In this document: positions 45,401 through 63,092 of the stretch, one piece after another
Layout: each line of letters opens with the position of its first letter
Position numbering within the stretch: position 1 is the first letter of the stretch
IMG/VR virus record: IMGVR_UViG_3300008107_000157
Location: 1 to 64,000 of that record
Reading direction: 5' to 3' (one strand)
From: a virus
Length of the DNA stretch: 64,000 nucleotides
Made by a program: the position numbers and the translations under genes
Notes under the pieces: generated by a model
What the model was told of the DNA's origin: nothing
Database searches by the model: none
Seen by the model: the letters and a program-made list of their open reading frames with translations, nothing else

Positions 45401-46310
45401 AAGCTCTTATTGTTATGTTTTGCGTTTGACCCGTTGTACCTTCACTATTAGTATGAACTACTGTCAATGTTACCGATGCTTCATCTGCGTTCATAACAGC
45501 CGATGTCATTGTAAGAGTGGCACCACTAACAGTTGGCAGAGTTGAAAATCCAACTGCATTGGCTGGCGTAAATGACATAGATGTGAACATAGAATTTGTT
45601 CCTTCTAATGCACTTATTGTAACATTTTGTAATGTTCCTGTTTGTGTACCAGCTGCGTTTGCTGCAACAGTTTGTGCTTGCGGAGTTGCTGAAATAGTAA
45701 CGCTTGGTACTGCTTTTCTTGCTTTAGATATTGTAGCTACTACATTTTTTGTTCCCGTTGTTCCTTCACTATCGGTATAATTTACAGGAATAGTTACTTG
45801 TCCCGTATCAGCAGACATTGATGATGCGTTTGAAGTAAATGTTAAGGTGTTTGTAGACGTAGTTCCACTTAATCCATTTGTATATGTCGGTGTTCCTAAA
45901 GATGAAAACCTAGTAGTATTACCTTCTAATGCGGTTATTGTAAGAGAATTAGGGGTAGCAGAACCACTACCTTTTGAATTAGCTTCTATCGTTTGAGCCG
46001 GTGGTGTAACTGCCACTACAACATTAGGAACTCCATCTTTTGCTTTTGAATAAGTTACAACTTTTGTAATATCAGTTGTACTACCTCTACCGTCTTTATA
46101 TCTTACCAATAAACTTAATGAACCACTATCAGCGGTTAATGATGTAATTCCATAAGTAGCATCATCTGGTGTTGTATCATTTGGAGTACAATTTATACCC
46201 GTTGCTGAAATTATATCAAATCTATTATTTGTTGCTAAATTTTCTTCTCTTGCAATATCTTCTCCACCAACTTTAACACTTACCGAACCACTTGTTGCAA
46301 CAAATGAACT
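42462..46310 (-). CDS. Tail fibre, C-terminal part, with intramolecular chaperone (peptidase S74)
   Basis: Thr/Ser/Gly-rich repeats, AQTTAN coiled-coil repeats, NDLGTSGNRW, SDRRLKEDI...GLIAQEV..YNELISPMIKSIQQL; no convincing start of its own. Confidence 0.85.
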   Translation of the reverse strand, partial: SSFVATSGSVSVKVGGEDIAREENLATNNRFDIISATGINCTPNDTTPDDATYGITSLTADSGSLSLLVRYKDGRGSTTDITKVVTYSKAKDGVPNVVVAVTPPAQTIEANSKGSGSATPNSLTITALEGNTTRFSSLGTPTYTNGLSGTTSTNTLTFTSNASSMSADTGQVTIPVNYTDSEGTTGTKNVVATISKARKAVPSVTISATPQAQTVAANAAGTQTGTLQNVTISALEGTNSMFTSMSFTPANAVGFSTLPTVSGATLTMTSAVMNADEASVTLTVVHTNSEGTTGQTQNITIRASKIKQGESGVVVNLNPASQIVTRSNTGTYGTPTAFVVSVVEGATTYTYSATLASASTFRIVSLSGHQAHTNASITPTTPTTTAGTNVTFTVEYKNAAGTPASVSQSHKVSVTLDGQTGPGVVHTGIWEAGRAYQYSDGLTSGDGRRDTVLWSSNGNAPYDTYYAATRQHTSTNNSNSLTGRPDLGGPWISLGTQDFFVAAKIGLFEDSYVQSTLNIGTNNNGGVSSANITLAGGSTNPYLSIGQSTQGYANDGIFLGRDSNVAKFSIVNGTTSFLKWTGTSLEIKGSLNFTNQSSVDLGGFGGFTTLSGSVNTAQLTANTGVSNAATAQTTANAATASAATAQTTANNAATAASNASTAASNAQSAATTVANNLQAVVNGNSTLTGTFINDSFIYSPAIAGNAGYFDEIFRVGPNGITLDGTNKSIYVGAGTYNNANTPFYFKSGSTDIFSLGDKLSFNGSALSLTGTMNASTFSGGTISIGTGNNIFKADSNGIYLGNTTFASAPFRVTPAGALTATNVTISGGAITIGSNFSVDTSGNMVANNASMTGTVTANTGRIGGWTISGTALEGSGSAGKIILDPSIPSMRFNNANGATKLTIRTGQLTYLGGNSVNLSMPSQTTGAGTYYSNVYNQTVGVVQTIYIPDAGSYVGTPSFSGNGSNLYYTSPTFNGYFSVNFWIEIKDGPTYATANSVGYISVGGDTTYGMPNETGVMGIYSSLTTLSFPTAGTYYLFPVRTVQGNFTSGYVQLAGGGYTGGSSNFTPEVDFGELTEFGLQVASSANQFAKIARNSSYAFESLGAIYVKSPNTSTFSYFDGVVHPFTGNTNDLGTSGNRWRYIYSNNLLQVSDRRLKEDIQPTDLGLDFINKLNPVKYKRIGASSPRFHYGLIAQEVTASLVDYGLTTSDAGFLVSSSVNYTAEEIEKFKDRRDWEVYEREMAASDRQELGIAYNELISPMIKSIQQLSAKIDELEAKISGSI
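44280..44470 (-). repeat. Ala/Thr-rich heptad repeats (AATAQTTAN) in the tail fibre
   Basis: gtttgcggttgtttgtgc occurs twice; protein AQLTAN/AQTTAN/AQTTAN. Confidence 0.75.
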
Positions 46311-49056
46311 GTGATTCTGCGATAACCGATGATAGTGTAACCTCATCATTATATGCGATGCCATTTAAATCATATGCCGTAAATGTGTATGTTTGTACTC
46401 CGGTACTATATTGGTAATTTGAAGATTGTCCAGCTGAAATTGTATAAGATGTAACACCATTTCCTTCATAGTTTGGTGCTGATAAAGCAGGAACTCCACT
46501 ACCGCTTGTTACAGTTATAGTGTTTGTTAAACTTCCTAAGTTTAATCTTTTTGCTAATATTGTTATGGTTTGTGAAGATGGAATAGGTGATAAATCAGTC
46601 ATCTTATAAAAAAACTGATTTGCATCTGATGTTGCTATTAACCCTTTACCTTTATCTCCTTTTAATACCGCATCAATTGTTACGGATGAGGTAAAATCTC
46701 CATCAACAGTATCGTATTTAAAATCATAATGTGATTGTCCAAAATCATATACATAACCACTTCCAGAAATCGGTGTTGCGCTATATTGGTGAGTAGATGA
46801 TGTTACAAATAATCTATAAACAGTTGCATTTCCAACACTTTCTATTTCGTGTAATGGTGGAGGCGTTCCTACTTCCGAACCCGATGTTATATTAAACCCT
46901 TCACTTTCAAATGATGGTAGATTTTGTCTTACTAAACGAATATCAATATAATCATCGGAAATATCAGATTTATATCTATCATCCGGGTCAAATACAAAAT
47001 TATTTTTATCTGCCGTAGCATAGAATAATCTTGCAGGTGCACCTTGGTCTATTCTAAAAATTGTAAAGTATCTATTAACATCTTCACAACTAGCCGTATA
47101 TGTAATTGCTCCAACAGTTACTCCTAAAGCAGAAGAACCTGTGAAGTTTGGTAAAGATAATGTTCTCGTATCAACATCTACATAATCCAATGTTCCCGGC
47201 TTTGGCGTTCCGGTAATTAAATTACCATTAACATCAACCGATTGTGATTGAAATGTAACAGAACCAGTCAATCCTGTTTTTGTAAAATCAATTGTTACCA
47301 ATTGTGGAAATATGGATGCCGTTGAAAAGTTAAACGAATTATTCGAAACGTTTAATTGTAAATCCCTTCTAACATCAACATCGTTACCACCCGTAAAAGT
47401 AAATTCTTCCTCCAATAAAACGGGAACATAATTATTGTTGATATCATATAACTCAAATTTAAAATCAAATGTTTCATTATTGATTTTAACTGGCACATTT
47501 ACAGTTAATGTAATTTCATTTGGTGAAAACGATGATTCTTGTGCCGCTCTTAAACTTATATCGCTAATATGCCAAACCCCTCCTTTAACAACATAAACTA
47601 AATTACCAATGCCATCGGCATCGGGCTTAAAGTTTATTTGTTGTTTATCATATTTTCTGAATTGAGTATTTGTTGTTAAATCCCCAATCTTTTTTCCGTA
47701 GTTTGTTTCTAATGATGTTGGAGTAAAGGCAGAACCACTCATATAAACTTCAATACCACCAAATGTATCAGCTGCTGCGGATAACAATGGTGTAAAATCT
47801 AATTGATATTCTGTATTCTTTGTGAAATTTACCGATTCTTTGTTATAGAATTTAAATAATCCAACCGATGAACTATAATCGCTTTGTGGTGTTAATAATA
47901 CTGATTTTAAAAGAGTTGTATTATCAACACTAAGATTTACACCCGTTTCTATTACCGATGATGTCCAAAATGATGATAATATAGCATTGGTAAATAAACC
48001 AGTTCTAACATTTAATTGATTTGCAAAAGATGATGTTAATAATAACTCATTACTTTCTAATTGAACATCTTCTAATAATTGAAAATCGCCTAAATCATTT
48101 TTAGAACTAGCATAAACTTTAATTCGGTTTACATCACCACTAAATGTATCTAAATCGGTAATGTTTATGGTAGCAAATGATGAATTGATTGCTGAATCGG
48201 TTAGTGTTACATCCGCATCGTATGACATTGTGTATGATGCCGATGTAAATGCGGTAACCGAATAATAATTTGGTAAAGATGAACCCGTTACATAATATGG
48301 TACATCTACAAATGCTTTTTTATTTGTTGTAACATCGGTTATGGTTGGCGAATATATTTTATTAAAACCAGAGCCGGTTATTTCTATAATCTCTCTTTCC
48401 ATTGATTCGGAAAATTGAGATAACGCATTTAATGATAATTCGTATCGTGAAACTCCTTTAAATGTTCTATAATCTTCGCCAGCCGATGGTACTATTGGTG
48501 TACCATTTAATGAACCAGATATTGTTAATCTACTTACATTTCTATTATAAATCGGAAGTATTGATTCCGTTATATCAATTTTTGGTCTACGATAAAATCT
48601 TATCTTAGATGTATTTGCTAATATTGGGTTTACATTTATTTGCTTTTCCCACTTAACGTTGTATGTGTCTTTCCAATTTTCAGGAACAGGAACTCTAACT
48701 CCGTTTGAAACATACTCACTTAACTCACCCAATATTGTTACAGTACACGGACCAAATGCAGTATCGGGGTATATATAAACGGCAACGACTTTAGAAGTTC
48801 CTTCAAAATATTCAGGAATACCTTCACCTGGTTCGTGATAAATTATGTTACCCTGTGAATCTCTGATTTGTATTTTTACAATTGTATCGGAAACCAATTC
48901 CGGCGAACCTTGAATAAGGAATGCGTTTTTACCTCCCGTAAATGTATCGGGTAATTCTGTTATTTTAAAATATCTACTATTAGGGTCGGTATCGTTTACT
49001 AAAACATTAATTGTTTCTAAACTTTCATCGAAAAGAGTTTTCTTCAGAATTGCCAT
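46273..49056 (-). CDS. Tail fibre/structural protein, N-terminal part
   Basis: Beta-rich and SGS/TGS-rich; the last 11 residues (FICCNKWFGKC) look out of frame. Confidence 0.75.
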   Translation of the reverse strand: MAILKKTLFDESLETINVLVNDTDPNSRYFKITELPDTFTGGKNAFLIQGSPELVSDTIVKIQIRDSQGNIIYHEPGEGIPEYFEGTSKVVAVYIYPDTAFGPCTVTILGELSEYVSNGVRVPVPENWKDTYNVKWEKQINVNPILANTSKIRFYRRPKIDITESILPIYNRNVSRLTISGSLNGTPIVPSAGEDYRTFKGVSRYELSLNALSQFSESMEREIIEITGSGFNKIYSPTITDVTTNKKAFVDVPYYVTGSSLPNYYSVTAFTSASYTMSYDADVTLTDSAINSSFATINITDLDTFSGDVNRIKVYASSKNDLGDFQLLEDVQLESNELLLTSSFANQLNVRTGLFTNAILSSFWTSSVIETGVNLSVDNTTLLKSVLLTPQSDYSSSVGLFKFYNKESVNFTKNTEYQLDFTPLLSAAADTFGGIEVYMSGSAFTPTSLETNYGKKIGDLTTNTQFRKYDKQQINFKPDADGIGNLVYVVKGGVWHISDISLRAAQESSFSPNEITLTVNVPVKINNETFDFKFELYDINNNYVPVLLEEEFTFTGGNDVDVRRDLQLNVSNNSFNFSTASIFPQLVTIDFTKTGLTGSVTFQSQSVDVNGNLITGTPKPGTLDYVDVDTRTLSLPNFTGSSALGVTVGAITYTASCEDVNRYFTIFRIDQGAPARLFYATADKNNFVFDPDDRYKSDISDDYIDIRLVRQNLPSFESEGFNITSGSEVGTPPPLHEIESVGNATVYRLFVTSSTHQYSATPISGSGYVYDFGQSHYDFKYDTVDGDFTSSVTIDAVLKGDKGKGLIATSDANQFFYKMTDLSPIPSSQTITILAKRLNLGSLTNTITVTSGSGVPALSAPNYEGNGVTSYTISAGQSSNYQYSTGVQTYTFTAYDLNGIAYNDEVTLSSVIAESQFICCNKWFGKC

Positions 49057-49152: not shown

Positions 49153-49332
49153 ATGAAATATTCTATGTTGCAAATAAAAAAAGAAACCCACGAACTTCTC
49201 AAAAAATATTGCGAAGAACATGGGTTTAAGATGGGGAGTTTAGTTGAAAATTTAATTAAAAAACACGTCGGTGTTACTAAACCTCAAGCGAGTGTGTTAA
49301 GAGCTGATAAGGTTAAAAATCAATCTTACTAA
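49153..49332 (+). CDS. Small ribbon-helix-helix-like DNA-binding protein (59 aa, not in the ORF track)
   Basis: MKYSMLQIKKETHELLKKYCEEHGFKMGSLVENLIKKH shows a beta-strand/helix/G-turn/helix pattern; has its own promoter motif; the only credible plus-strand gene. Confidence 0.7.
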   Translation: MKYSMLQIKKETHELLKKYCEEHGFKMGSLVENLIKKHVGVTKPQASVLRADKVKNQSY

Positions 49333-52300
49333 ATCCATCTATCTTTTTTATCTCTATCAATCCATCTACGATATCTCTCATTTGTTCTAAGTGAGAAATC
49401 ATCCAAATAAAATCAAATTGAGTTTTTAAATATTGCATCATCATAAATAATGATGATAAGTTGTTTGCATCCAATGTACCAAATCCTTCATCAATTACTA
49501 AGAAGTTTGGACGAGGTAGGTTACATATGTTAATTAGAGCTACTCTAATAGCCAATCCACTTACGAATTTCTCCATACCACTACACATCTCTAAAGGCCA
49601 TTCTTGGTCTTCATAAACAATCTTTGCGTTAATGTTTTTACCATCGATGTCCATTACAATACTAAAATCAACAACCTGTCCTAAGATATTATTGATTTCA
49701 TTTTCAATAACTGGCATTGCTTTAGAAATTAATTCGTATGGAACTCCATCACGCTTAACTGCATCTAAATAATAGGTGTATAGGCGGTTCTTTTCTTCCA
49801 AATCCTTAACTTCATTCATCTTAGATTTAATACCTTCTATAAACGATTCTAATGAAGAAATAGAGCCATTCAATCCAGCTATATCTTTGTTAATAGATTT
49901 GATTTCTAATTCAATCTCACCCTTAGTTCTATTTAACCCATTAATAACGGATTCTATTTGTTTGTTACGTTTAATAGTATCTTCGTTATCGTGATACTTT
50001 TGGATATCGGTATTTACCTGCTCTAATTGAGTATCATATAATTGTTTTTGAGTTTCGAATCCGTTTAATTCAGCAATTGTTTTTTCTTTAATTACAATTG
50101 CTTTTTGATATTTGGATTTTAACTCAACTAATTCATCCCATTGTTCTTCTACATCTGCAATATAAGATGCCTGTTGAATTAATGATTGGTGCTTGTTTCC
50201 TAATTCTTCTAACTTATCTTCTTGCTCTTCTACTTTAGATTTGGTTTCTAATGCATCTTTTACAAACACATTATTCATACAAAACTTACAATTTGGGTCA
50301 TATTCGTGTTGTTCCAAATGTGAAAGTTTTTCTCTATTAGATTCCAAAGATTGTTCTAATAATTGAATCTGATGTTCGGTTTCATTTATCTCACTTTTAT
50401 ATTCATCCCATTCTTTTTTTGCATCTTCAATTGGTTTACCATTTATAATTTTATGTTCTTCAATTGATTGGGATATTTCTGTAATCGATTTAGTATATTC
50501 ATCCAATTTACCATTCTTACTTTTTTCTTCGGAAAGAACGTGTAAAATATCAAATCCAATTTGATTCTTTTTCTTTTCTAATTTTTCTAAATCCAAATTA
50601 GCATCTACTGGCACTAACTCTTTTGTTAATCCCAATATTCTATTAGATAAATCTTCTACATCATTTGTTTTTGTTTCTAATTCTTTTTCTTTACCTCTTA
50701 GTTCTGATTTCTTAGTTTGCTTTTCTAAACCCTTTTCAGCCAACTCTGTCGTAAAGTCGGTTTTCTTAAAATTTTTGATAAGTACCGATACTTCTTTAAT
50801 ATCTTCGGTTGCGGTTTCGTATAATTTATCAAACACATTTAATCCCATAAATTGTGCTAATAAATCTTTTCTTTCCGATTGTGATTTATCAATAAAGATT
50901 GAGTTATTACCTTGTAATGATAATGCGGTCAATACGAAATCTTCATACTTACCAACGTATTGTTCAATTACGGCGTTTGTATCCCTACGTTCCGTACCAT
51001 TTAAAGAAGTTGTAACTCCACCTTCTTCTTTCCAAAATTGTACATCTACTTTAACGTTCTTACCTTTGTTAATAGTTCTAGCAGTTCTTTTGATAAAGAA
51101 ATCCATTCCATTAACTTGGAAGTGTAGCTCACATTCGAAATCAGATTTACGATTATTCATAATGTTTTGAGCTTTGAATGCTCTACTACTCTTATCGTAT
51201 AAACAAAATGAAATAGCATCGAATAAAGAAGATTTACCTGCTGCGTTTGGTGCAAATAATCCCATCAATCCTCCTATCTTTTGGAAATCGATTTTATTCT
51301 TCTCACCATATGAGAACATATTACTGAATGTAAACTTAATAGGTTTCCAATGAATATTTCTATGTACTTCCTCTTGCGTTATTCTACTATTGATATCTCT
51401 ATTGATTACTTCCAATCCATCTAAGTCGGTAGTAGTTGTAAACGGCATCATTCTTTGAACGTAATCTCTTATCAATGTGTTTTGATGATTGATATCAGTT
51501 ACATCTTCAAAATCTAATTTACTTAATCGATTACCAGTCTTTTGCTTATTAAATGAATCGGTTCTGATGATTGTGAAATCTTCAACACCATATCTCATTT
51601 TAATTTCAGTAATTACTTTCTTTGTATCAGCCGTATCCGTATTAGATAAACGAACTCTTAAACGAGGTTTCTTTGGCATATCCATTACAATAGGAACTAC
51701 TCCATTATCAACATCCAATGTATAATATCCATATTCATTTGGAATATCGATTGCTTCGTATTTCATTGAATCCATATCCCAAGCTAAGAATCCGTGTCCA
51801 TTTAAACTTTCACCAAAGTTTTGTTGTACCAATGAACCGGCATAAACTACTTTACATCCGCTTGGTGAAATCATAGTTTGTCTTTTATGGATATCACCTA
51901 ATAAGGCTAAATCATATCCATCAAACATATCGGTAGTGAAATGGCGAGATGATACCACATACCCAACATCGGTTTGGGAATTATCAACAGGTCCATGAAA
52001 CAATGCAATCTTCTTATTACCAAATAGGGTATTAGCTTTTGGCCAATTTGCTTTGTCATCAAAGATACTGAATACACCAAAATCAACATCACCAATAGAA
52101 TATACTTGCGTATCTCTTAGGTATGTAAAATTGGGTAGATTCAATGCATCTACGATAGGAGTAAGTACATCTAATCTATCGGAGTTATTCATATTACAAT
52201 CGTGATTACCTGTAATAAGGATTGTTTCACAATGTTTAGAACATTCCGTAAATAGCCAACTTATCTCTCTAACCAATTCAGGAGATAATTCCAATTTAGC

Positions 52301-52459
52301 ATGCGCAATATCACCTGCTAAATAAATGAGTGAATTTTCCGTACCTCTTTTACGGATTTCTTCAAACATCTTTTCAAACACTTGTCTATACTCTTTGTGT
52401 CTTTGTACGTTGCGAATGTGTACATCCGCAATATGATAGATTGTTTTTAATCTTTTCAT
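49313..52459 (-). CDS. Fused SbcD-SbcC (Mre11-Rad50, gp47-gp46-like) nuclease/ATPase
   Basis: ADVH, AGD, GNHD and GDIH phosphoesterase motifs; APNAAGKSS Walker A; CKFC zinc hook; SGME signature; IDEGFG; ISH. Confidence 0.93.
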   Translation of the reverse strand: MKRLKTIYHIADVHIRNVQRHKEYRQVFEKMFEEIRKRGTENSLIYLAGDIAHAKLELSPELVREISWLFTECSKHCETILITGNHDCNMNNSDRLDVLTPIVDALNLPNFTYLRDTQVYSIGDVDFGVFSIFDDKANWPKANTLFGNKKIALFHGPVDNSQTDVGYVVSSRHFTTDMFDGYDLALLGDIHKRQTMISPSGCKVVYAGSLVQQNFGESLNGHGFLAWDMDSMKYEAIDIPNEYGYYTLDVDNGVVPIVMDMPKKPRLRVRLSNTDTADTKKVITEIKMRYGVEDFTIIRTDSFNKQKTGNRLSKLDFEDVTDINHQNTLIRDYVQRMMPFTTTTDLDGLEVINRDINSRITQEEVHRNIHWKPIKFTFSNMFSYGEKNKIDFQKIGGLMGLFAPNAAGKSSLFDAISFCLYDKSSRAFKAQNIMNNRKSDFECELHFQVNGMDFFIKRTARTINKGKNVKVDVQFWKEEGGVTTSLNGTERRDTNAVIEQYVGKYEDFVLTALSLQGNNSIFIDKSQSERKDLLAQFMGLNVFDKLYETATEDIKEVSVLIKNFKKTDFTTELAEKGLEKQTKKSELRGKEKELETKTNDVEDLSNRILGLTKELVPVDANLDLEKLEKKKNQIGFDILHVLSEEKSKNGKLDEYTKSITEISQSIEEHKIINGKPIEDAKKEWDEYKSEINETEHQIQLLEQSLESNREKLSHLEQHEYDPNCKFCMNNVFVKDALETKSKVEEQEDKLEELGNKHQSLIQQASYIADVEEQWDELVELKSKYQKAIVIKEKTIAELNGFETQKQLYDTQLEQVNTDIQKYHDNEDTIKRNKQIESVINGLNRTKGEIELEIKSINKDIAGLNGSISSLESFIEGIKSKMNEVKDLEEKNRLYTYYLDAVKRDGVPYELISKAMPVIENEINNILGQVVDFSIVMDIDGKNINAKIVYEDQEWPLEMCSGMEKFVSGLAIRVALINICNLPRPNFLVIDEGFGTLDANNLSSLFMMMQYLKTQFDFIWMISHLEQMRDIVDGLIEIKKIDGFSKIDF

Positions 52460-52464
52460 ATTTT

Positions 52465-53076
52465 TTATATTAAATTTTGTATATTTTTTTCTTTATAAAA
52501 TTCTCTACCATTAAATGTAGTATATTTTAATTCATAATCACCATATTTAAAATAAGAATTTTTATATGGGAGAGATTCATATTCCGTTTCCGATAAGTTA
52601 TATCTAATAGCATTAAATATGCCATCCACCATTGGTGTCTGAAAAAATGCAACTATTGTTCCTTTTTTACAATTAGGTTTTACATAATCTAAAAATTTAG
52701 GAATATTTGAATCCAAATGCGTATCGTGTAAAACTCCATCAAATTTATCATTTAACGTTGGTAAAATATCAATCCAATCGCCTAAAAGTATTTTAGTATT
52801 TGGTTTATCTTTACACCATTCTAATGCGTTTTGATATATTTCGGGATGAACTTCTATAATTGTGTGCGATGTTACATTTGGGTTGGATTGTATTTCATCA
52901 GCTGATAAATGCATTCCAAATCCTATTTCTAAAATATCCCCACCATTTTTAGTAACTATATTTGCTAGTTTTTGCATTAATGATAATTCACCTATATGCA
53001 TAACTCTATCGCCATTTGTACAATCATCCATCATAATTTCATCTGATGATACAATTATTTTTTCTTTTCCATTCAT
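52465..53076 (-). CDS. SAM-dependent methyltransferase, GAMT/Rmt2-like
   Basis: ILEIGFGM, HTIIEVHP, GDW and FDGVLHDT motifs. Confidence 0.78.
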   Translation of the reverse strand: MNGKEKIIVSSDEIMMDDCTNGDRVMHIGELSLMQKLANIVTKNGGDILEIGFGMHLSADEIQSNPNVTSHTIIEVHPEIYQNALEWCKDKPNTKILLGDWIDILPTLNDKFDGVLHDTHLDSNIPKFLDYVKPNCKKGTIVAFFQTPMVDGIFNAIRYNLSETEYESLPYKNSYFKYGDYELKYTTFNGREFYKEKNIQNLI

Positions 53077-55851: not shown

Positions 55852-57066
55852 TTAAAAGTCTAATTTAACCTTAATTGCAACTTCCTTATCAAATGATTTT
55901 TCAATTGGTTTAGATACTTTTGCAACTGCTAATAATTCGTTAGCATCATCGTAAAGACCTACGGTAGTAATGTACACTTTAGGGTCTCTTTCAAAAGTAG
56001 GTTGAACAAATTGACCAGTTGAGCCGGTTACAAATGTTGGGTTGTTTGAGAAATTGAATTCTCTATTGTTAGCTCTTACGAAATAATGTGAAGTAGAAAC
56101 GTTTTCAGTTCTACGAGCTTGGAAATCTTCTCCTTTTTTCAATGCAGCAAATAAATTGTGCATATTAGTTACGTTACTATATGTGTTAGCTGCTGATGCT
56201 GAAACAAATGTTGTTCCAACTCCTGCTCTAACAGCCGAAGGGTTTAAAATGATAACACCTGCATCTGGGTAAAATAATCCCCATCCTAATCCGTTTGATG
56301 CCGTTACTGAATTGATTGTACCTTCGTTGCCAGTACCGATGTTCAATGCACCACTAACCATATTAAATACTCTACCGCTTGAACCAACAGTTTCAGTTTG
56401 ACCTGAATCATCGATTAGGGTTATCAATCCTGTTGAACCCGATAAATCGATTTGGATATTACCTGGGTCTAATTTTTCTTTGTATCTAGCTCTATTAATG
56501 TTTAATGCGTAGAAATGCTCTAAGTCGTGTCCACCTTCGGTAGAACCGTTATAAACACTAAAGTATGTATCACCACCATCTAATAATAAGTTTCTCATTT
56601 GAGAATAGATAGCTTTGGTTGCTAAAGTTGAGCTATCAGTTTGTGATAATGTTGGTACACCACCTCCACTAATATGTGCATATGCAATAGAAAACTGAAC
56701 TTCAGCTGATGCTGATGTATAGTGTTCGTTGTAAACATCTAAGTAATATTTACCACTTACCGATGAACTTTGCTCCGATGATGAATAGAATGCGGTTAAA
56801 GAACCTGCATCACTACTCCAAATACCAGAAGTTACAACTTCAGTTCTATTTGTTACTTTATCAATAGCACCAAACTTTTTGTAAATACCATTTGTTACGG
56901 TAGTTACATCGGCACTAATTTGTTCACCTTGTCCTAAGAATTGGTTTACGATGTTTACTAATTCGTTTGTATCAACGGGAGTTCCTGCGGTGTTAGCTGC
57001 ACCTGCTAAGTATTGTGATAAATTACTTGCTAAAAGGGCTCCTCTATTGTCTCTTATTACTGCCAT
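55852..57066 (-). CDS. Virion structural protein (baseplate/tail-associated)
   Basis: YITTVGLYDDANELLAVAK C-terminus; Ser/Thr/Gly-rich. Confidence 0.65.
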   Translation of the reverse strand: MAVIRDNRGALLASNLSQYLAGAANTAGTPVDTNELVNIVNQFLGQGEQISADVTTVTNGIYKKFGAIDKVTNRTEVVTSGIWSSDAGSLTAFYSSSEQSSSVSGKYYLDVYNEHYTSASAEVQFSIAYAHISGGGVPTLSQTDSSTLATKAIYSQMRNLLLDGGDTYFSVYNGSTEGGHDLEHFYALNINRARYKEKLDPGNIQIDLSGSTGLITLIDDSGQTETVGSSGRVFNMVSGALNIGTGNEGTINSVTASNGLGWGLFYPDAGVIILNPSAVRAGVGTTFVSASAANTYSNVTNMHNLFAALKKGEDFQARRTENVSTSHYFVRANNREFNFSNNPTFVTGSTGQFVQPTFERDPKVYITTVGLYDDANELLAVAKVSKPIEKSFDKEVAIKVKLDF

Positions 57067-57074
57067 AGTTTATA

Positions 57075-57698
57075 TTATTGAACGTAAGTTACTGTCACTG
57101 GAATTGTTTGTGAACCACCCGTTTCGTTACCATAAACAGTTATAGTTGTTTTGATAGTCGAAGTTAAAGATGGGTTTGGAATAAATTTGAAAGTTAATCC
57201 CTTTGCAACTGCTGCAGTTGCTGATACATCATCACCAATAAAAATAGGTACAGTACCAACATCTGCTGTTACACCTTCACCTACAATATCACCAGCGTTT
57301 TTATTTGATAATACAATTGTATATCCTAATCTTCTATTTCCGGCAGGAGATGTAGTTGGAGATAATGAAACCTCACCACTTCTTTGATTAACTGCTACGT
57401 TAGGAACACCAAATTCTACAACTGGGATTCTTGTAGTATTTTTTGGAAGTGTTACAATTTTGTATTTCATCACCTGAGTCTCATCAGGAGATGCTTCTAA
57501 TACAGGCATATTTTTGATTGCTGCGTCATAATAAGCCGAACCCAATGGGTGTGCTGGCTCATATAAAGAGTAATCAATTTCATCGTCTGCTAAAGCAAAT
57601 TGGGTAATATTTAAACCCAAACCTGCTGCTAATTTTTCTCTACCTTTTTTAGTAAGAATTGCATCAACTGTCAATTCATTATTACTTAAATATCCCAT
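57075..57698 (-). CDS. Virion structural protein (baseplate/tail-associated)
   Basis: DAILTKKGREKLA..ITQFALADDEIDY resembles tail-fibre attachment N-termini; tandem ATATTTAT at 57721-57734. Confidence 0.65.
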   Translation of the reverse strand: MGYLSNNELTVDAILTKKGREKLAAGLGLNITQFALADDEIDYSLYEPAHPLGSAYYDAAIKNMPVLEASPDETQVMKYKIVTLPKNTTRIPVVEFGVPNVAVNQRSGEVSLSPTTSPAGNRRLGYTIVLSNKNAGDIVGEGVTADVGTVPIFIGDDVSATAAVAKGLTFKFIPNPSLTSTIKTTITVYGNETGGSQTIPVTVTYVQ

Positions 57699-57746: not shown

Positions 57747-60700
57747 TTATTCCACTTCTAATATTGGTTCACTTGCATCTCTACCTGCTTTGTTTACTCT
57801 TAATGTGTTTGGATTTGTTAAGAATGTTTCAACAGGCGGTGTACCATCTAATGTAGTTGCTGCAGTATTTTTTGAACCCTTATAGAATGAATTTTGTAAT
57901 CCTCTTGTCAAATCCGTTGTGTTTCTATAATGTGTTGGCAAGTATCCATTTAATGGAATTACTTTTACATTTGCATTTGATGATGTTAATGCGGATGAGC
58001 CAGAAAATGGTTGTATATTTAATTTTGTTTCAACATAAGTATCAGTTCCAACTTTATTATAAAGTCCACTAACACCCACACTTCCTGTTAAATATACATA
58101 TTCTCTCGTTTTAGTTTCTTTTATTAATTGTACCCTAACTCTTTCCTTTTTAAGATTACCATCTTTATCATAGTAAGTTCTTATAGCAGAACCACTTTGT
58201 GCATAAATACCAAATCCTAATGTTTCATAATCATTTTGTCCAACAACAACGTTGCCATTTATTAATTCAACTTCGGTTAATATGGTTGGTACATCAAATA
58301 TAGAATCTATACTTGCCGTATATTGATATGAATTACCTTCTAATAGTGAAAATTCTTTTGCATCTATTGTAGATGTATATTGATATGATTCTCCATTTAA
58401 AATTGCTGCTGATGCTGAATCCAAAGTTGCATCATATTGATTGTTTTCACCAACTAATGAATATTCACTTTCAGTATCTAAAACAACATCGTATTGTATG
58501 TGTTCCGCTGATAATAATTCATTTCCATATTTTATTACCGATTCATAATCATTATGTTCACCAACTGGTTTTGAATGTTGGTGTTTGCTTCTTTCTAAAA
58601 TGTGTGGTTCAATTAAAAGACCTGTACTAGCTTTAACTCTAGCCGGCAACATCTTCTTAATATCTTCAAACATAGATTTCTCATATAGTTTGATTAAGTT
58701 GATGTATGCGTAGATATCTCTACCATCAAATCTCTGGAAGTAATAGTGTCTTAATTTATCTAAACTCTTATAAGTATCTTTATATCTATCAGATGGGTCA
58801 CCGATATAGTTATCTAAGTTAATTCCACCAAACGATTTAGCAATATCAATATTCAACTCTTTTGTAGGAGAGAAGAATAAACCAATTCTGTTAGAATCAG
58901 TTGGAGATTGGTCAAATGCTTTTTTAGTAGAACGAGTCTTTGATGATAAATCGGAAACTAATGTTTGCTCTTCAAATCTAACTTTGTTTGTAGAGTATCT
59001 TGTAGAACCCATATCAGGAACTTCTAACACAACACTTCTATCTATTGCTTCAAAGTTAAAAGGATAAGAACCACTATTCGGAAAATTATGTGCACTTGCC
59101 GAATATGAAGCTGATGGGTTTAGTGAATATAATTCAGTCGCACTTCCACTTTCATAACTTACTCTATCGGCACTACCACTAAAATAAATATTTGTATCTA
59201 CGTTTGGTATGGATTGATATTGAGATAAGTTCTTTGGATATTCAAAGTCTAAACGGAAATGTAAATCATCAGTTGAAGATGAGATATGGTTACCATTAAT
59301 CATTTCGGGAAATGAAACGTGCTCATAGAATCTTTCTTTATCTAATGGTGTAGACCATAATCTGAATTCATCAGCCGTTCCTACGAAATCATTACCAAAT
59401 GTTATATTAGACCCATTATTCCAATTTGAATTTGTTCCTAAAACACTTATAGTGTTTGATTCTTCAAATATTGTTCTATCTTTATCAGCCTGTCTTACAT
59501 TTAATTCAAAATTATGATAGCTTGAACTAATTTCTCTACTAACTTCTATACCAAAAAATCTACCATTAAATAATGGTAATAAAGATGATGATATAGCGTT
59601 TGAGCCAGAGTAATTAAATATAACTCTACCATAGTTTTGATTTGCAGAACCACTTATATGTACACCCCAACCACTACCCGATATAACATTATAGTTATCT
59701 GCTTCGGATGGTTTTACAAAAAACTCTATTGTATCAGGTTTTCTATTTTCGTTTGTATCAAACCAATCTATTGATAGGTAAGAGCCACTAATCATTTTTA
59801 AACCATAAGTAAGATTATCAAATACTAATTTAGATTTTGTAACTTCACTAACTTCTGGTCCACCAAATTCTAAAATTGAAAGGTTTGATGATGGGATACC
59901 ATAACAACTTAATAGTGCATAAATACCTCTACGAGTACCTTTATGTTTTAAAAGATATGGTAAATTGTTTACAATTCTTCTCCAAACTTCGTATGTTCTT
60001 TGTTTAGCAGGATTTTCATTTTTAATATTACCATCTACATCTATACCAAATGTATATTCCCAAAGTTTAGAATCTGCTGCAAGATTTTTTGCATCCCAAT
60101 TGAATGATTTAAGAATATCAAATAATAGTTTATCTGATATTCCATCTTTTGCTTTGTATCCTAATCCTCTACTTTTTTCAATTGCTTTAGTATGGTAGTA
60201 GATGTTATCAAAGTGTTGACCAACCATTGTAAAGAATAAAATAAATTGGTCATTGTTTTCATTATTTACAATGTATTCCGGTATGTTATTTAAAACGTAG
60301 TTTGGATTCTCAATATCAAAATCTTCTGCTAATTCTATAATATTATCATACCAACCTGTATTAAAAATGTTTGTTATAATATGCGATGTGCTTGATATCC
60401 TATCACCATTATTATCATATGGCCATGTTATAGAGCTTCCCGTATTATTTGTATATAATGAAGATGATGTATATAAAAACTTTTCAAAACCATCGAATCC
60501 AGCTATTAACGTATCTTTTTTAGATTGCTGTCTATTAACTTCTTGTATTGATGCAATAGAGCCGGTATATGAACCAGATGGTCCATTAGTATAGTTTGTA
60601 GAAGCTGATAGTATTAAATTATCGTAAGCTTCAATCAATTGAACTTTATAAACAAAGTTATCTACTCTTTCTTTAGCAGAACTAAAATGTACAAAGTTAC

Positions 60701-63092
60701 TCCATTCATAATTATCCGAACCACTTATATAATATTCTACATTTAATTCATCAGTATTTATTAATGATGATGTTAAGTATGTAGAAACTAATTGAGCTGA
60801 TGTTGTTGAACCACTTAATATTAAATTATCCAAAGATTCGTATGCGGTAGATTGACCACTTACAAAATCAACATCAATATTGAAATTAGGTCCTTTTATT
60901 GGTGGACATTTAACTTCATCTTGCTCCGTAAGAATTACAGTTTCAATTAATGGATTTGACATTAATTTAGTAATCCACAAAGTAGAGTTTGCGGTTATAT
61001 TTGGATTTAAAGGTGTGTATAATTTAAGAATTAAAGAATCAACTTTATTTGTTACCTTTATGTTTCCTATTTCATCCGTTTCTTTATCCGATAAAGTCCA
61101 ATCATCATTTTCCCAAGACGAAATTAATATTTGCTCATCATTACCAAAATTTGTTAAGTGAGATAAATATTTACTTTCTTTTTCAGGTTCAACTATACTT
61201 AATTTTTCTGCAAATGCATCAAATATAACAGTTGAAAATATATTCTCATCTAATTGAAATGCCGGCAATCCTAAAGTAGTTATTACTTCGTATTCATTAC
61301 CAATAAGCTCTTCGGCGCCACCTCTATTAAATGGTTTAAATACCAAAGTTACATTATCACTACCTGCCCAATTTGTAAATCTTTCTCTTAAAGATTTTAT
61401 GTTTATTAAAACTTCTCCGTTTGGATTTAAGTTTTTAAATAAACCTATTCTACTTTTATCTTTTAATAATAAATCTACATCCACCGTTGTTGTTGAGAAC
61501 GATGTGTATTCTATTTTATATTCAATGTTAAAATCTGAAAAAGATGGTACATCTATATTTTGCGGAAAGTTTATTTCGGTAATAGATGGAAAATCATTTA
61601 CAGCAGTAAAAGTAATTAAAGTAGTAGCAGAATCTCCTGTTCCGTATCTATTACTTTTAGCTAATAAAACTATTTTTTTAGTTCCATAAACTTCAGCAAA
61701 ATCATTTTTAAATGATAAAGTTATATATTGATTAGATGGTGGTATTGATATTACTTGAGAACTCCCATCGATATAAAGTAATACCTCATCTGCATTTATC
61801 GTTCTAAATGGAATTGAAATATTTTTATCATCATCCGATTCTTTTACCTGAACAGATATTTGTTTATATACATCATCAATTTCAACAGATGGTCTTTCTA
61901 CTTCTATTTCTTTTTCGAATAGAGTTACGACAGATATGCCTGTTTTTAAAAGCTCACTAGATACACTAAACGCAGATGGTTGCTTATTCCATTTGTTATA
62001 ATCGGGTTCGGTTGTAGCAAACAATCCATTTGGTGTGGCTGTTTGATATATGTTTGTTAAAAAATAATTAGATGGCAGATTGTTGTATCTTATTTTAAAA
62101 TCTACTCTACCTCCATTTAATTCTTTTAAATCAATTTTCTGTATATCATTACCATCTGATAATGATATCGAACTTTGTTTTAATATATTTTCCTGTGCTG
62201 AAAATATTATATAATCCAATATTACATTATTTCCTAATTCGTTTTTTAAATTAGAAGAAAATACAATTTCATATTCCAGCTTATCAGCTACATTTGGGTC
62301 TCCACCTAATCCACCGCCAAATCCACCTCCAGTATCGCCGCTTAAACCACCACCGCTTTTAGTTTTTGCCTTAGTTGTAAAGTTTAATGTTATAGAACCA
62401 AAATCAGAATCTAAATTTTTAGTATTATCTAGTAAATAACTACCATCCGGTTGTAATCTATATTCGTTTATTGTTAAAACTTCAGCATATTTGTAATCAA
62501 TAGCTGTTGTTTTAGGGTTAAAATTATATCTTAATTTTGGGGTATATCTAGTTAAAAAGTTATTTCTATCATCATTATAGTAATCATCATTAAATCCAAA
62601 AATACCCCTTCTGTTTGAATTAAATCCATATGAATTTCTTCCAAATCTTATATATTCTGGGTTTAGATAATCTATATCCAAATCCAATGGTGTATTTATT
62701 TCTTTTGGTGGTTGATATTTTTTTGTAACGCTAACTTCATAGTATTGTTCTGCGATACTACCATCTTTAACGATTTCATATTTTTTTGTGCCGGAAAATG
62801 TAGAAGCTGGAAAGAATCCTTTTCTAAAACTCTGACCAAATGATAATGAAACTCCGTTTTCAAAAAATTCAACTACATCATCCCCAGCCGTTAATGATAT
62901 TTTAATCATTTTACTGGTAGTAGTATCCACTATATCAATCGGAACATATGTTGGGTTTGGTGGTACAGGTGGTACATATCCTCCTCCTCCGCCTCCTCCA
63001 CCATTATCAATGAAAGCAGAGTATTGACCGTTACCATCATATGCGTTTAGGGTAGGTTCTCCTCCAAAAATATTTTCTAATGCTTTTACCAC
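57747..63092 (-). CDS. Large baseplate wedge-like structural protein
   Basis: 1781 aa; LPYLLKHKGTRRGI (P2 gpI-like motif), LamG-like region (TIEFFVK..DEFRLWSTPL), many SGS motifs; ATATTTAT at 63108-63115. Confidence 0.65.
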   Translation of the reverse strand: MVKALENIFGGEPTLNAYDGNGQYSAFIDNGGGGGGGGYVPPVPPNPTYVPIDIVDTTTSKMIKISLTAGDDVVEFFENGVSLSFGQSFRKGFFPASTFSGTKKYEIVKDGSIAEQYYEVSVTKKYQPPKEINTPLDLDIDYLNPEYIRFGRNSYGFNSNRRGIFGFNDDYYNDDRNNFLTRYTPKLRYNFNPKTTAIDYKYAEVLTINEYRLQPDGSYLLDNTKNLDSDFGSITLNFTTKAKTKSGGGLSGDTGGGFGGGLGGDPNVADKLEYEIVFSSNLKNELGNNVILDYIIFSAQENILKQSSISLSDGNDIQKIDLKELNGGRVDFKIRYNNLPSNYFLTNIYQTATPNGLFATTEPDYNKWNKQPSAFSVSSELLKTGISVVTLFEKEIEVERPSVEIDDVYKQISVQVKESDDDKNISIPFRTINADEVLLYIDGSSQVISIPPSNQYITLSFKNDFAEVYGTKKIVLLAKSNRYGTGDSATTLITFTAVNDFPSITEINFPQNIDVPSFSDFNIEYKIEYTSFSTTTVDVDLLLKDKSRIGLFKNLNPNGEVLINIKSLRERFTNWAGSDNVTLVFKPFNRGGAEELIGNEYEVITTLGLPAFQLDENIFSTVIFDAFAEKLSIVEPEKESKYLSHLTNFGNDEQILISSWENDDWTLSDKETDEIGNIKVTNKVDSLILKLYTPLNPNITANSTLWITKLMSNPLIETVILTEQDEVKCPPIKGPNFNIDVDFVSGQSTAYESLDNLILSGSTTSAQLVSTYLTSSLINTDELNVEYYISGSDNYEWSNFVHFSSAKERVDNFVYKVQLIEAYDNLILSASTNYTNGPSGSYTGSIASIQEVNRQQSKKDTLIAGFDGFEKFLYTSSSLYTNNTGSSITWPYDNNGDRISSTSHIITNIFNTGWYDNIIELAEDFDIENPNYVLNNIPEYIVNNENNDQFILFFTMVGQHFDNIYYHTKAIEKSRGLGYKAKDGISDKLLFDILKSFNWDAKNLAADSKLWEYTFGIDVDGNIKNENPAKQRTYEVWRRIVNNLPYLLKHKGTRRGIYALLSCYGIPSSNLSILEFGGPEVSEVTKSKLVFDNLTYGLKMISGSYLSIDWFDTNENRKPDTIEFFVKPSEADNYNVISGSGWGVHISGSANQNYGRVIFNYSGSNAISSSLLPLFNGRFFGIEVSREISSSYHNFELNVRQADKDRTIFEESNTISVLGTNSNWNNGSNITFGNDFVGTADEFRLWSTPLDKERFYEHVSFPEMINGNHISSSTDDLHFRLDFEYPKNLSQYQSIPNVDTNIYFSGSADRVSYESGSATELYSLNPSASYSASAHNFPNSGSYPFNFEAIDRSVVLEVPDMGSTRYSTNKVRFEEQTLVSDLSSKTRSTKKAFDQSPTDSNRIGLFFSPTKELNIDIAKSFGGINLDNYIGDPSDRYKDTYKSLDKLRHYYFQRFDGRDIYAYINLIKLYEKSMFEDIKKMLPARVKASTGLLIEPHILERSKHQHSKPVGEHNDYESVIKYGNELLSAEHIQYDVVLDTESEYSLVGENNQYDATLDSASAAILNGESYQYTSTIDAKEFSLLEGNSYQYTASIDSIFDVPTILTEVELINGNVVVGQNDYETLGFGIYAQSGSAIRTYYDKDGNLKKERVRVQLIKETKTREYVYLTGSVGVSGLYNKVGTDTYVETKLNIQPFSGSSALTSSNANVKVIPLNGYLPTHYRNTTDLTRGLQNSFYKGSKNTAATTLDGTPPVETFLTNPNTLRVNKAGRDASEPILEVE

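What the first reader, a model, noticed from the sequence alone, without database searches (positions are those of the whole stretch)
46273..63092. [S/T]-[G/A/S]-S motif recurs in tail and baseplate proteins: candidate glycosylation sequon
Seen: the structural ORFs repeatedly contain ISGSLN, ITGSGF, VTGSS, MSGSAF, TSGSEV, ISGSGY (46273-49056); LSGST, ISGSDN, PSGSYTGSIAS, ISGSYL, ISGSGW, ISGSAN, YSGSNA, FSGSAD, ESGSAT, PSASYSASAH, NSGSY, QSGSA (57747-63092); and ISGSP, TTGSLSGSS, ASGSV (54557-55759). By eye the motif is rare in portal, terminase, SbcCD and the metabolic enzymes. Established: Ser-Gly is the proteoglycan attachment site, and its linker is extended by a GT7 enzyme (B4GALT7). Inference: this is the acceptor sequon for the adjacent glycan island.
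Basis: partly seen in the sequence, partly recalled or inferred. Interest (0 to 1): 0.85.

Follow-up and report, generated by a model that had tools for sequence, protein, structure and literature searches.

The report
Ser-Gly-Ser tag on phage tail proteins
The outer tail and baseplate proteins of this uncultured freshwater phage and its whole clade carry the tripeptide Ser/Thr-Gly/Ala/Ser-Ser several times more often than chance, and it may be where the phage attaches its own sugars, although no chemistry shows this.

Summary
In five tail, baseplate and fibre ORFs, SGS occurs 28 times against 4.4 expected. It is the most over-represented of all tripeptides there. In 52 other ORFs of the window the broad motif occurs 5 times against 17 expected.

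The signal lies at protein level and in proteins that are not homologous to one another. It holds across 80 related IMG/VR loci (1048 vs 178) and across 150 distant representatives of one family (327 vs 47). Two cultured distant relatives show it too: Flavobacterium phage immuto and Microcystis phage Mel-JY01. T4 and a cyanomyovirus do not.

The last Ser is the best-kept position, and the middle residue swaps among G, A and S.

- The motif is far older than the adjacent GT7-LamG island.
- Its flanks are hydrophobic, not acidic.
- No GT14 was found on this contig.

What does co-occur is an adjacent pair of GT4-like genes. At least one member is present in 6 of 6 motif-bearing genomes with enough sequence and in 0 of 2 controls. 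The pair is not on this contig, which is about 41% complete.

The co-occurrence amounts to one clade, many motif glycines are structurally fixed, and no glycan has been seen.

This scan has noted the same motif before in many other phage genomes.

The parts
57747..63092 (-). 1781-aa baseplate protein. It holds a LamG-like region at about residues 1080-1360.
   Evidence: It carries 27 [ST][GAS]S vs 6.4 expected and 12 SGS vs 1.2, z 10.0. 54 orthologues in related loci hold 314 SGS vs 41.0 expected. In the LamG-region alignment ISGSGW, x-SGS-x and FNYSGS recur, and the third Ser of one site is invariant. It is syntenic with the large baseplate ORFs of immuto and Mel-JY01. No Pfam or PHROG family matched.
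55852..57066 (-). 404-aa virion protein. Only its last 55 residues resemble the 400-aa protein.
   Evidence: It carries 7 [ST][GAS]S vs 2.2 expected. 78 orthologues hold 271 SGS vs 35.8. Recurrent sites include LSGS[VLI] in 42 of 48 sequences and V[TS]GS in 47 of 48. The BLAST similarity to 54557-55759 covers the C-terminal 55 aa only.
54557..55759 (-). 400-aa baseplate or tail protein of a very large phage family.
   Evidence: It carries 7 [ST]GS vs 0.5 expected. The family has 3416 hits and 1279 representatives. The 150 listed representatives hold 327 SGS vs 46.9 expected. In the AF2 model (pLDDT 77.6) sites 25, 50 and 54 lie in loops just after strands; site 297 does too, but its region, like sites 335-354, has low confidence. 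The best fold match is weak: phi812 baseplate chain, Z 5.3.
46273..49056 (-). 927-aa tail or fibre-like protein of unknown family.
   Evidence: It carries 17 [ST][GAS]S vs 4.4 expected and 9 [ST]GS vs 1.3. 23 orthologues hold 199 SGS vs 42.9. No Pfam or PHROG family matched.
42462..46364 (-). 1300-aa tail fibre with a C-terminal Peptidase_S74 chaperone domain. It lies outside the given coordinates.
   Evidence: PF13884 matches at E 4e-13 and PHROG tail-fibre families match. SGS is 7 vs 1.9 expected (5 of 2000 shuffles reach it). The broad motif is not enriched, 11 vs 12.0, because the protein is very rich in Ser, Thr and Gly.
49313..54308 (-). Contrast set among the virion genes: SbcCD fusion, a 203-aa ORF, an 80-aa ORF, a primase-like protein and an endonuclease.
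   Evidence: There are 0 motif instances in 1644 aa. In related loci the orthologues hold 0 SGS against 8.2 (SbcCD), 6.0 (primase) and 2.5 (endonuclease) expected. The orthologues are 83-85% identical, so they are not independent.
57075..57698 (-). 207-aa, highly conserved protein between two motif-rich genes. It has no motif.
   Evidence: It has 0 instances. 60 orthologues at a mean 93% identity hold 0 SGS vs 5.2 expected.
35294..39856 (-). Three paralogous GT7 glycosyltransferases, each with a LamG domain. They are candidate glycan-extending enzymes; a link to the motif is not shown.
   Evidence: PF13733, PF02709 and PF13385 match. 2-3 copies occur in 4 of 4 longer related contigs. The LamG domain sits between the catalytic motifs and the C-terminal part of the GT7 domain (alignment; the comparison with B4GALT1 is recalled). 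A profile of these proteins finds no homologue in the fetched parts of immuto or Mel-JY01.

Best explanation
[S/T]-[G/A/S]-S, usually between hydrophobic residues at the point where a beta-strand runs into a loop, is a short tag kept by selection on the outward-facing tail proteins of this phage clade: sheath, outer baseplate and fibres.

The most likely reader of the tag is a soluble, phage-encoded glycosyltransferase. It would act in the host cytoplasm on folded or folding virion proteins and put a sugar on a serine, probably the last and best-conserved one.

The likeliest starting enzyme is the clade-wide adjacent pair of GT4-like genes. These are seen in relatives, and in this phage they are presumably in the missing part of the genome.

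The 28-kb island beside the tail genes would then supply unusual nucleotide sugars and extend or decorate the glycan. The island carries nucleotide-sugar enzymes, three GT7-LamG proteins, a methyltransferase and a radical SAM enzyme. A carbamoyltransferase lies outside the island at 72059-73756.

Shown: the statistics, the distribution and the co-occurrence. Inferred: that there is any modification, which residue carries it, and which enzyme makes it.
For: 1. Strength and specificity. SGS is the top tripeptide, 28 vs 4.47. It exceeds the dipeptide expectation, 28 vs 9.9. It is ordered: TGS is 2.9x but SGT 1.04x, SGN 0.58x and SGA 0.77x in 80 loci.

2. Convergence. The seven motif-rich ORFs compared (the five in the window plus two baseplate ORFs beyond its end) share no BLAST similarity, apart from 55 residues of two of them.

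3. Persistence with turnover. Homologues at 27-35% identity keep 3-5 SGS, mostly at other positions. 150 representatives below 50% identity hold 327 vs 46.9.

4. Substitution pattern at 70 recurrent sites. Position 3 is Ser in 74%. Position 2 is G 46%, S 23% or A 16%. Position 1 is S 49% or T 27%. Several sites swap G, A and S between fixed serines. That fits a need for a small residue better than a need for a glycine turn.

5. Location.
- Loop starts in the AF2 model.
- Seven of 10 instances in the immuto sheath fall in the variable middle region, residues 92-292, which is not alignable with a relative's sheath.
- Immuto's portal, tape measure, hub and tail-completion protein hold 0 SGS.

6. 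Controls.
- T4 tail, baseplate and fibres hold SGS 5 vs 5.3.
- T4 ORFs overall hold 11 vs 8.0.
- The cyanomyovirus Sf-FR1 baseplate region holds 4 vs 4.9.

7. Co-occurrence.
- At least one gene of the GT4-like pair is present in immuto, Mel-JY01, the three near-complete close relatives G010-G012 and the more distant G014.
- The pair is adjacent in five of these six genomes.
- Neither T4 nor Sf-FR1 has it.
- Among 50,697 phage records it occurs only in the immuto phages and Mel-JY01.

8. Island proteins lack membrane segments. This fits direct cytoplasmic transfer rather than a lipid-linked export route.
Against: - No chemical evidence exists for any glycan on any of these virions.
- The co-occurrence equals one clade, so it is effectively a single evolutionary event and cannot be told apart from shared ancestry.
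- The GT pair is not on this contig. Its presence here is inferred from relatives.
- Many sites have an invariant Gly while the flanking residues vary. TGS[FY] near the C-terminus of the 400-aa family is invariant in 60 of 60 sequences. Both look structural.
- Hydrophobic flanks and strand-to-loop positions also fit a plain turn motif.
- The depletion in non-virion proteins was not reproduced. It is 5 vs 17 in the window. The 114 ORFs of the other genome half of relative G010 hold 61 vs 46.7. For [ST]GS there is only a weak trend there: 8 vs 13.5, with 40 of 500 shuffles as low.
- Exposure rests on one AF2 secondary-structure string without coordinates. Four of its seven sites lie in low-confidence stretches.
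- The island could instead modify DNA, as other phage glycosyltransferases do (abstracts listed).
Confidence: 0.45

Rival explanations
1. The motif is purely structural. Hydrophobic-S-G-S-hydrophobic would be this clade's preferred way to end a beta-strand and make a tight turn in beta-rich tail proteins. Nothing is attached to it.
For: - Gly is invariant at many sites while the neighbouring residues vary, for example D[TAV]GSL, [STNA]G[ST]T and V[SE]G[SAT]L.
- TGS[FY] is invariant in 60 of 60 sequences.
- In the AF2 model the sites sit where strands end and loops begin.
- The flanks are hydrophobic.
- Thr is tolerated at position 1, which is in the strand, but not at position 3, which is in the loop. 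That agrees with residue propensities (established knowledge, recalled).
Against: - Other common turn formers are not enriched: NGS 1.2x, DGS 1.2x, SGN 0.58x, SGD 1.2x.
- At other sites the middle residue swaps freely among G, A and S between fixed serines.
- Analogous beta-rich tail proteins of T4 and a cyanomyovirus show no excess.
- Unrelated proteins of the same virion share the excess, while internal virion parts lack it.
Confidence: 0.33
2. The motif is a recognition tag for something other than glycosylation. Examples are another serine modification (phosphorylation, acylation, an ester cross-link) or a docking site for an assembly chaperone or decoration protein.
For: The specificity, convergence and turnover require only some reader of the tripeptide.
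Against: No kinase, acyltransferase or chaperone was found to co-occur with the motif, but I did not search for one systematically. The only conserved clade-specific enzymes that I found co-occurring are glycosyltransferases.
Confidence: 0.12
3. The excess is an artefact of composition, low complexity, shared ancestry or post-hoc selection of proteins.
For: - The proteins are rich in Ser, Thr and Gly.
- I chose the five ORFs after seeing the counts.
- Orthologue counts in related loci are not independent. Other tripeptides such as MKY and RIP also score high there because conserved blocks repeat.
- In the very S/T/G-rich fibre 42462-46364 the broad motif is not enriched, 11 vs 12.0.
Against: - Per-protein composition shuffles and a dipeptide model both fail to explain it.
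- A single ORF gives z 10.0.
- SGS is first of all tripeptides, by nine orders of magnitude in p.
- Representatives below 50% identity keep a 7x excess.
- The sites are isolated tripeptides, not serine runs: SSS is 8 vs 5.6.
Confidence: 0.03

Closest known systems
Virion glycosylation of mycobacteriophages (Che8, Rita) by phage-encoded glycosyltransferases (Freeman et al. 2023). I saw it only as cited in passages of PMC11256854. The paper itself is not held.
   Same: Phage-encoded glycosyltransferases are said to attach glycans covalently to virion proteins and form a glycan shield (passage read). Here too a phage carries its own glycosyltransferases and sugar-synthesis genes next to virion genes.
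   Different: - There the stated targets are major capsid proteins. That the sites lie at C-termini, and also on the tail tube, is my recollection.
- Here the candidate sites are internal tripeptides on sheath, baseplate and fibres.
- The immuto capsid protein has 1 SGS vs 0.31 expected.
- Here there is no chemistry, and the hosts and phage lineage differ.
GtfA/GtfB O-GlcNAc transferase pair that modifies serine-rich-repeat adhesins of streptococci and staphylococci (recalled, not from a call).
   Same: Both involve an adjacent pair of GT-B-fold proteins, one with clear and one with degenerate glycosyltransferase signatures. Here the 460-aa protein matches PF00534 at E 2e-9 and the 422-aa protein only at E 4e-4, below the cut-off. 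Both act in the cytoplasm, and in both the acceptor is a serine next to a small residue (S-x-S).
   Different: - No sequence link was found. The best solved relative of the 460-aa protein is the chlorovirus glycosyltransferase B736L (3oy2, E 2e-11).
- No GtfA or GtfB chain is among its 38 hits, or among the partner's 2 hits, at E up to 1.
- The sites here are isolated tripeptides in folded domains, not long tandem repeats.
Proteoglycan linkage region of animals: xylosyltransferase (GT14) on Ser-Gly, then B4GALT7 (GT7).
   Same: The acceptor contains Ser-Gly, and three proteins with GT7 domains are encoded nearby.
   Different: - The flanks are hydrophobic, not acidic.
- No GT14/Branch family member is on the contig.
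- The motif is shared with phages that lack GT7-LamG proteins.
- The third residue must be Ser, which is not part of the xylosylation consensus (recalled).
Cytoplasmic glycosylation of bacterial adhesins at short motifs: HMW1C at N-X-S/T, and the autotransporter heptosyltransferases TibC and Aah (recalled).
   Same: In both, soluble enzymes use nucleotide sugars to decorate beta-rich surface proteins at many short sites before export or assembly.
   Different: The enzyme families and the residue chemistry differ. Neither family was tested here.
Chlorovirus capsid glycosylation by virus-encoded enzymes (review abstracts listed: PMC9614988, PMC7019647).
   Same: The virus encodes its own glycosylation machinery, which acts without the host's usual route. 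The nearest solved relative of the phage's 460-aa GT4-like protein is a chlorovirus glycosyltransferase.
   Different: That is a eukaryotic virus with N-linked glycans on the capsid protein at atypical sites (recalled). The similarity covers only about 130 residues of the C-terminal Rossmann domain.

Membership tests
Phage virion glycosylation system (mycobacteriophage type) | The phage encodes its own glycosyltransferases. | tested here: met
   Three GT7-domain proteins are in the window. An adjacent GT4-like pair is present in 3 of 3 near-complete close relatives.
Phage virion glycosylation system (mycobacteriophage type) | A glycan is covalently attached to virion proteins. | not testable with these tools
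   This needs mass spectrometry or glycan staining of purified virions.
Phage virion glycosylation system (mycobacteriophage type) | The targets are the major capsid protein, and the tail tube by recollection. | tested here: inconclusive
   The capsid gene is not on this contig. In immuto the capsid protein has 1 SGS vs 0.31 expected, while the sheath has 5 vs 0.63.
Proteoglycan-type linkage (GT14 xylosyltransferase plus GT7 B4GALT7) | A GT7 catalytic domain is present. | tested here: met
   PF13733 and PF02709 score over the cut-off in proteins 36641-38068 and 38402-39856. PF02709 does so in 35294-36610.
Proteoglycan-type linkage (GT14 xylosyltransferase plus GT7 B4GALT7) | A GT14/Branch-family starting enzyme is present. 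| tested here: inconclusive
   PF02485 finds nothing on the contig, but the contig is about 41% complete.
Proteoglycan-type linkage (GT14 xylosyltransferase plus GT7 B4GALT7) | The acceptor is Ser-Gly flanked by acidic residues (consensus recalled). | tested here: not met
   In 1048 SGS sites the residue before is L (3.6x) or V (2.4x) and the residue after is V (3.6x), A (2.4x) or L (1.8x). D after the motif is 0.6x.
GtfA/GtfB serine-rich-repeat glycosylation | There is an adjacent pair of GT-B-fold proteins, one of them degenerate. | tested here: met
   This was tested in relative G010, not in the window. A 460-aa protein (PF00534 E 2e-9) lies next to a 422-aa protein (PF00534 E 4e-4, below the cut-off).
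GtfA/GtfB serine-rich-repeat glycosylation | The proteins show sequence homology to GtfA or GtfB. | tested here: inconclusive
   No such chain appears among the PDB sequence hits at E up to 1. The best hit is chlorovirus B736L. No fold comparison was possible.
GtfA/GtfB serine-rich-repeat glycosylation | The substrate is a long tandem Ser-x repeat. | tested here: not met
   The sites are isolated tripeptides within folded domains.

The most novel reading that the evidence does not exclude
A large clade of aquatic T4-like phages has hosts as different as Flavobacterium and Microcystis. In this reading, these phages coat the exposed surfaces of their tails with phage-made O-glycans. A dedicated cytoplasmic two-protein glycosyltransferase attaches the glycans at a three-residue sequon, [S/T]-[G/A/S]-S. 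Lineage-specific islands, here 28 kb with LamG-bearing GT7 enzymes, then diversify the glycan. This would be the first defined O-glycosylation sequon for a phage virion and a general glycan shield on phage tails in nature.
Probability: 0.4. Interest if true: 0.85.

Novelty: new variant of a known kind. Interest (0 to 1): 0.66.

Why it matters
If the tag is a glycosylation site, three things follow.
- Phage virion glycosylation would not be a mycobacteriophage curiosity. It would be a widespread trait of abundant freshwater and marine phages.
- It would have a sequon that can be read from sequence alone.
- It would explain why such phages carry very large sugar-gene islands inside their virion modules.

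It would also bear on how phage tails resist proteases, stickiness or grazing, and on how host recognition evolves.

Two cultured members, Flavobacterium phage immuto and Microcystis phage Mel-JY01, make it directly testable by mass spectrometry.

If instead the motif is structural, it is still a clean example of a lineage-specific turn signature shared by unrelated proteins of one particle.

Tried and rejected
DNA-level explanation: rejected. Codons are mixed, the hexamer lies almost only in frame 0, and the AGT preference before Gly is general in this genome.

General property of myovirus tail proteins: rejected, using T4 and the cyanomyovirus Sf-FR1.

Shared domains spreading the motif: rejected.

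Avoidance of the motif in non-virion proteins: suggested by the window (5 vs 17). It was not reproduced in the independent half of relative G010 (61 vs 46.7), so I do not rely on it.

A glycosyltransferase shared between this island and the immuto or Mel-JY01 islands: none found.
- tblastn at E 1e-5 matched only the three epimerase-type enzymes.
- A profile of the GT7-LamG proteins found nothing.
- Only parts of the two genomes were fetched: immuto 30-160 kb, Mel-JY01 70-112 kb and 143-185 kb.
- Weak PF02709 matches below the cut-off exist in both, at 21.7 and 14 bits.

Naming the 400-aa protein's fold:
- Foldseek against the PDB gave nothing at E 0.001 or better.
- The wide search gave at best Z 5.3, 71 residues aligned at rmsd 2.0, to a phi812 baseplate chain. 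This is too weak to name a fold.

A relative that lacks the motif:
- The six listed representatives of the 400-aa family with 0 SGS still carry the invariant TGS.
- A search started from one of them (P0252) brought three loci, and all three are again enriched.
- I found no clade member without the motif, so no within-clade loss test was possible.

Literature:
- Searches for phage virion glycosylation brought no paper on a tripeptide sequon in phage tail proteins.
- A search for 'Ser-Gly-Ser' with O-glycosylation brought none either.
- A search for 'Mel-JY01' (0 papers) found nothing.
- These searches cover only the held library. No supplements were consulted.
Full report
WHAT THE WINDOW IS

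All genes lie on the minus strand and G+C is about 30%. The window is the first 64 kb of a single 89,344-base viral contig. CheckV rates the contig about 41% complete.

Recognisable genes:
- Prohead protease, portal and large terminase.
- A fused SbcCD nuclease, a primase-like protein and an endonuclease.
- A tail fibre with a Peptidase_S74 end.
- Just past the window, a gp6-like baseplate wedge protein and a Nol-like carbamoyltransferase.

Between the tail fibre and the terminase lies a sugar island. It carries three epimerase/dehydratase-type enzymes, an RmlC-like epimerase, a nucleotidyltransferase, a TPP enzyme, a radical SAM enzyme and a methyltransferase. It also carries DUF5672 and DUF6071 proteins and three proteins with GT7 domains plus a LamG domain.

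No close relative is in the GenBank phage collection. The nearest cultured phages are Flavobacterium phage vB_FspM_immuto and Microcystis phage Mel-JY01. Their baseplate wedge proteins are 40% and 42% identical to this phage's.

THE OBSERVATION

In the five ORFs 42462-46364, 46273-49056, 54557-55759, 55852-57066 and 57747-63092 (4812 aa), 2000 per-protein composition shuffles give:

| Motif | Observed | Expected | z |
|---|---|---|---|
| SGS | 28 | 4.4 | 11.1 |
| [ST]GS | 40 | 8.8 | 10.9 |
| [ST][GAS]S | 70 | 26.4 | 8.8 |

No shuffle reached any of the three observed counts.

The remaining 52 ORFs of the window (16,063 aa) hold the broad motif 5 times against 17.0 expected, and SGS once against 3.3.

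A scan of all tripeptides puts SGS first (p 7e-14). The next best is at p 2e-5. A dipeptide-based expectation is 9.9, still far below 28.

The motif is ordered. TGS is enriched (12 vs 4.3), but SGT is not (4 vs 4.3).

It is not a nucleotide motif. Serine codons of both boxes are used. The commonest hexamer lies in frame 0 in 27 of 28 cases. The preference for AGT before a glycine codon holds for all Ser-Gly pairs of the genome.

One exception should be stated. In the very Ser/Thr/Gly-rich fibre 42462-46364 the broad motif is not enriched (11 vs 12.0), and only SGS itself is (7 vs 1.9).

HOW FAR IT REACHES

- Eighty IMG/VR loci around homologues of the 400-aa protein hold 621 ORFs, with 1048 SGS against 177.8 expected.
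- Split by orthologous group, the excess sits in the same proteins as here:
  - 400-aa group: 213 vs 22.7.
  - 404-aa group: 271 vs 35.8.
  - 1781-aa group: 314 vs 41.0.
  - 927-aa group: 199 vs 42.9.
- The SbcCD, primase, endonuclease and 207-aa groups have none, against 8.2, 6.0, 2.5 and 5.2 expected. These orthologues are close kin and not independent.
- A fairer sample is the 150 listed representatives of the 400-aa family, clustered at 50% identity. They hold 327 SGS vs 46.9 and 614 [ST]GS vs 83.4.
- Immuto: eleven baseplate and fibre ORFs hold 33 SGS against 7.3. The sheath holds 5 against 0.63. Portal, tape measure, hub and tail completion protein hold 0, and the capsid protein 1 against 0.31.
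- Mel-JY01: six baseplate and fibre ORFs hold 28 against 3.3.
- Controls: T4's tail, baseplate and fibre proteins hold 5 against 5.3. T4 ORFs overall hold 11 against 8.0. The baseplate region of the cyanomyovirus Sf-FR1 holds 4 against 4.9.

The excess is therefore a trait of one phage clade, not of contractile tails in general.

ANATOMY OF THE SITES

- In the 1048 sites the residue before the motif is most enriched for L (3.6x) and V (2.4x). The residue after is most enriched for V (3.6x), A (2.4x) and L (1.8x).
- The motif-rich proteins compared (the five in the window and two baseplate ORFs beyond its end) are not homologous to one another. The only similarity is the last 55 residues of the two ~400-aa proteins.
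- Within orthologous groups many sites are kept: LSGSA in 42 of 60 sequences, LSGS[VI] in 43 of 60, and TGS[FY] in 60 of 60. Homologues at 27-35% identity carry 3-5 SGS, mostly elsewhere.
- I took 70 sites occupied in at least 30% of sequences. Position 3 is Ser in 74% of cells. Position 2 is G 46%, S 23% or A 16%. Position 1 is S 49% or T 27%. The sites were chosen by the motif, which inflates all three figures.
- The pattern is mixed. Some sites swap G, A and S between fixed serines, which speaks for a small-residue rule. Others keep an invariant Gly with variable neighbours, which speaks for a structural turn.
- An AF2 model of the 400-aa protein (pLDDT 77.6) places sites 25, 50 and 54 in loops directly after strands. 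Site 297 is placed the same way, but its region has low confidence, as do the regions of sites 335, 348 and 354. I had only the secondary-structure string, not coordinates.
- In the immuto sheath all 10 motif instances lie between residues 62 and 393. Seven lie in the stretch 92-292, which does not align with a relative's sheath. By recalled knowledge of sheath proteins, that stretch is the outer inserted domain.

THE ENZYMES

The GT7 domains are real and are conserved in 4 of 4 longer related contigs. Three things speak against that link:
1. The flanks are hydrophobic, not acidic.
2. No GT14/Branch protein is on the contig (the contig is incomplete).
3. Immuto and Mel-JY01 share the motif but have nothing like the GT7-LamG proteins or any other island glycosyltransferase, within the parts I fetched.

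Both cultured phages do have glycosyltransferase clusters of their own.

Earlier notes of this scan said that the excess goes with a conserved pair of glycosyltransferase genes. They did not say which pair. I looked for it myself.
- Immuto genes 89 and 90 have clear counterparts in Mel-JY01, at 37-54% and 43% identity, adjacent and in the same order.
- In 50,697 phage records the second gene occurs only in the immuto phages and Mel-JY01.
- The pair is absent from this contig and from four related fragments.
- Three near-complete genomes of this phage's own lineage (180, 199 and 245 kb; 80-87% identical in a head-module protein) all carry both genes side by side.
- A more distant member, G014, has at least the first gene.
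- T4 and Sf-FR1 have neither.
- The first protein is a GT4-type enzyme: PF00534 at E 2e-9, with the chlorovirus glycosyltransferase B736L as its best solved relative at E 2e-11. The second gives only sub-threshold GT1 matches.

None of the 32 called minus-strand island ORFs has a convincing membrane segment. This fits direct transfer in the cytoplasm.

WEIGHING

Points for a sequon:
- The sharp and ordered specificity.
- Convergence in unrelated proteins of one particle.
- Density kept while positions turn over.
- Absence from internal virion parts and from control phages.
- Co-occurrence with clade-specific glycosyltransferases.

Points against:
- There is no chemistry.
- The co-occurrence is one clade and so amounts to one event.
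- Many sites have structurally fixed glycines.
- The apparent avoidance of the motif in non-virion proteins failed to replicate in the other half of a relative's genome: 61 vs 46.7 for the broad motif, and 8 vs 13.5 for [ST]GS.
- The island might serve DNA modification instead, as in other phages (abstracts listed).

My odds are about 45% for a glycosylation tag, 33% for a purely structural motif and 12% for another kind of recognition tag. The remainder is artefact or something not thought of.

KNOWN WORK

Phage-encoded virion glycosylation is reported for mycobacteriophages. I read this only as cited in PMC11256854; the original paper is not held. My searches of the held library found nothing on a tripeptide sequon on phage tail proteins.

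The same motif has been noted and followed up before in this scan on many other phage genomes. A word search returned 168 notes in at least 153 genomes, of which I saw eight. It is therefore not new to the scan, but I found it in no paper.

Noticed in passing
window 46273-46364: The stop of ORF 46273-49056 lies 91 bases inside the called start of the tail-fibre ORF 42462-46364. The fibre's first residues look unlike a real N-terminus. The true start may lie further down, or the two ORFs may be joined by a frameshift.
   Followed up: no
window 35294-39856: In all three GT7 proteins the LamG domain is inserted inside the catalytic domain. It sits after the WGWG-EDDD-like block and before the C-terminal DGLNS-like block, near where B4GALT1 has its acceptor loop (comparison recalled). 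A profile of these proteins found no such fusion in the fetched parts of immuto or Mel-JY01.
   Followed up: partly
G000 88054-89344, and loci L189-L193: Five of the six related contigs found with this gene end within about 1.6 kb upstream of the homologue of gene 88054-89073, as this contig does. This suggests a repeat, a hypervariable stretch or a physical genome end at that point.
   Followed up: no
window 14280-42465: None of the 32 called minus-strand ORFs of the sugar island has a convincing transmembrane segment. There is no sign of a flippase, polymerase or lipid-carrier transferase.
   Followed up: partly
whole contig: There is a strong codon-pair bias. Serine before a glycine codon is AGT in 59 of 116 SG[^S] pairs, against 22% AGT among all serine codons.
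   Followed up: partly
window 57075-57698: A 207-aa protein rich in Thr and Gly sits between two motif-rich genes. It is 93% conserved over 60 relatives and never carries SGS. It may be an internal tail or baseplate part.
   Followed up: partly
G000 72059-73756 (beyond the window): A Nol-like carbamoyltransferase (PHROG 1601, E 6e-124) lies among the baseplate genes. It could decorate a sugar.
   Followed up: no
PP395634.1 5212-5895 (Mel-JY01): Mel-JY01 has a second, weak match (27% identity) to the GT4-like partner protein, inside a 1234-aa ORF.
   Followed up: no
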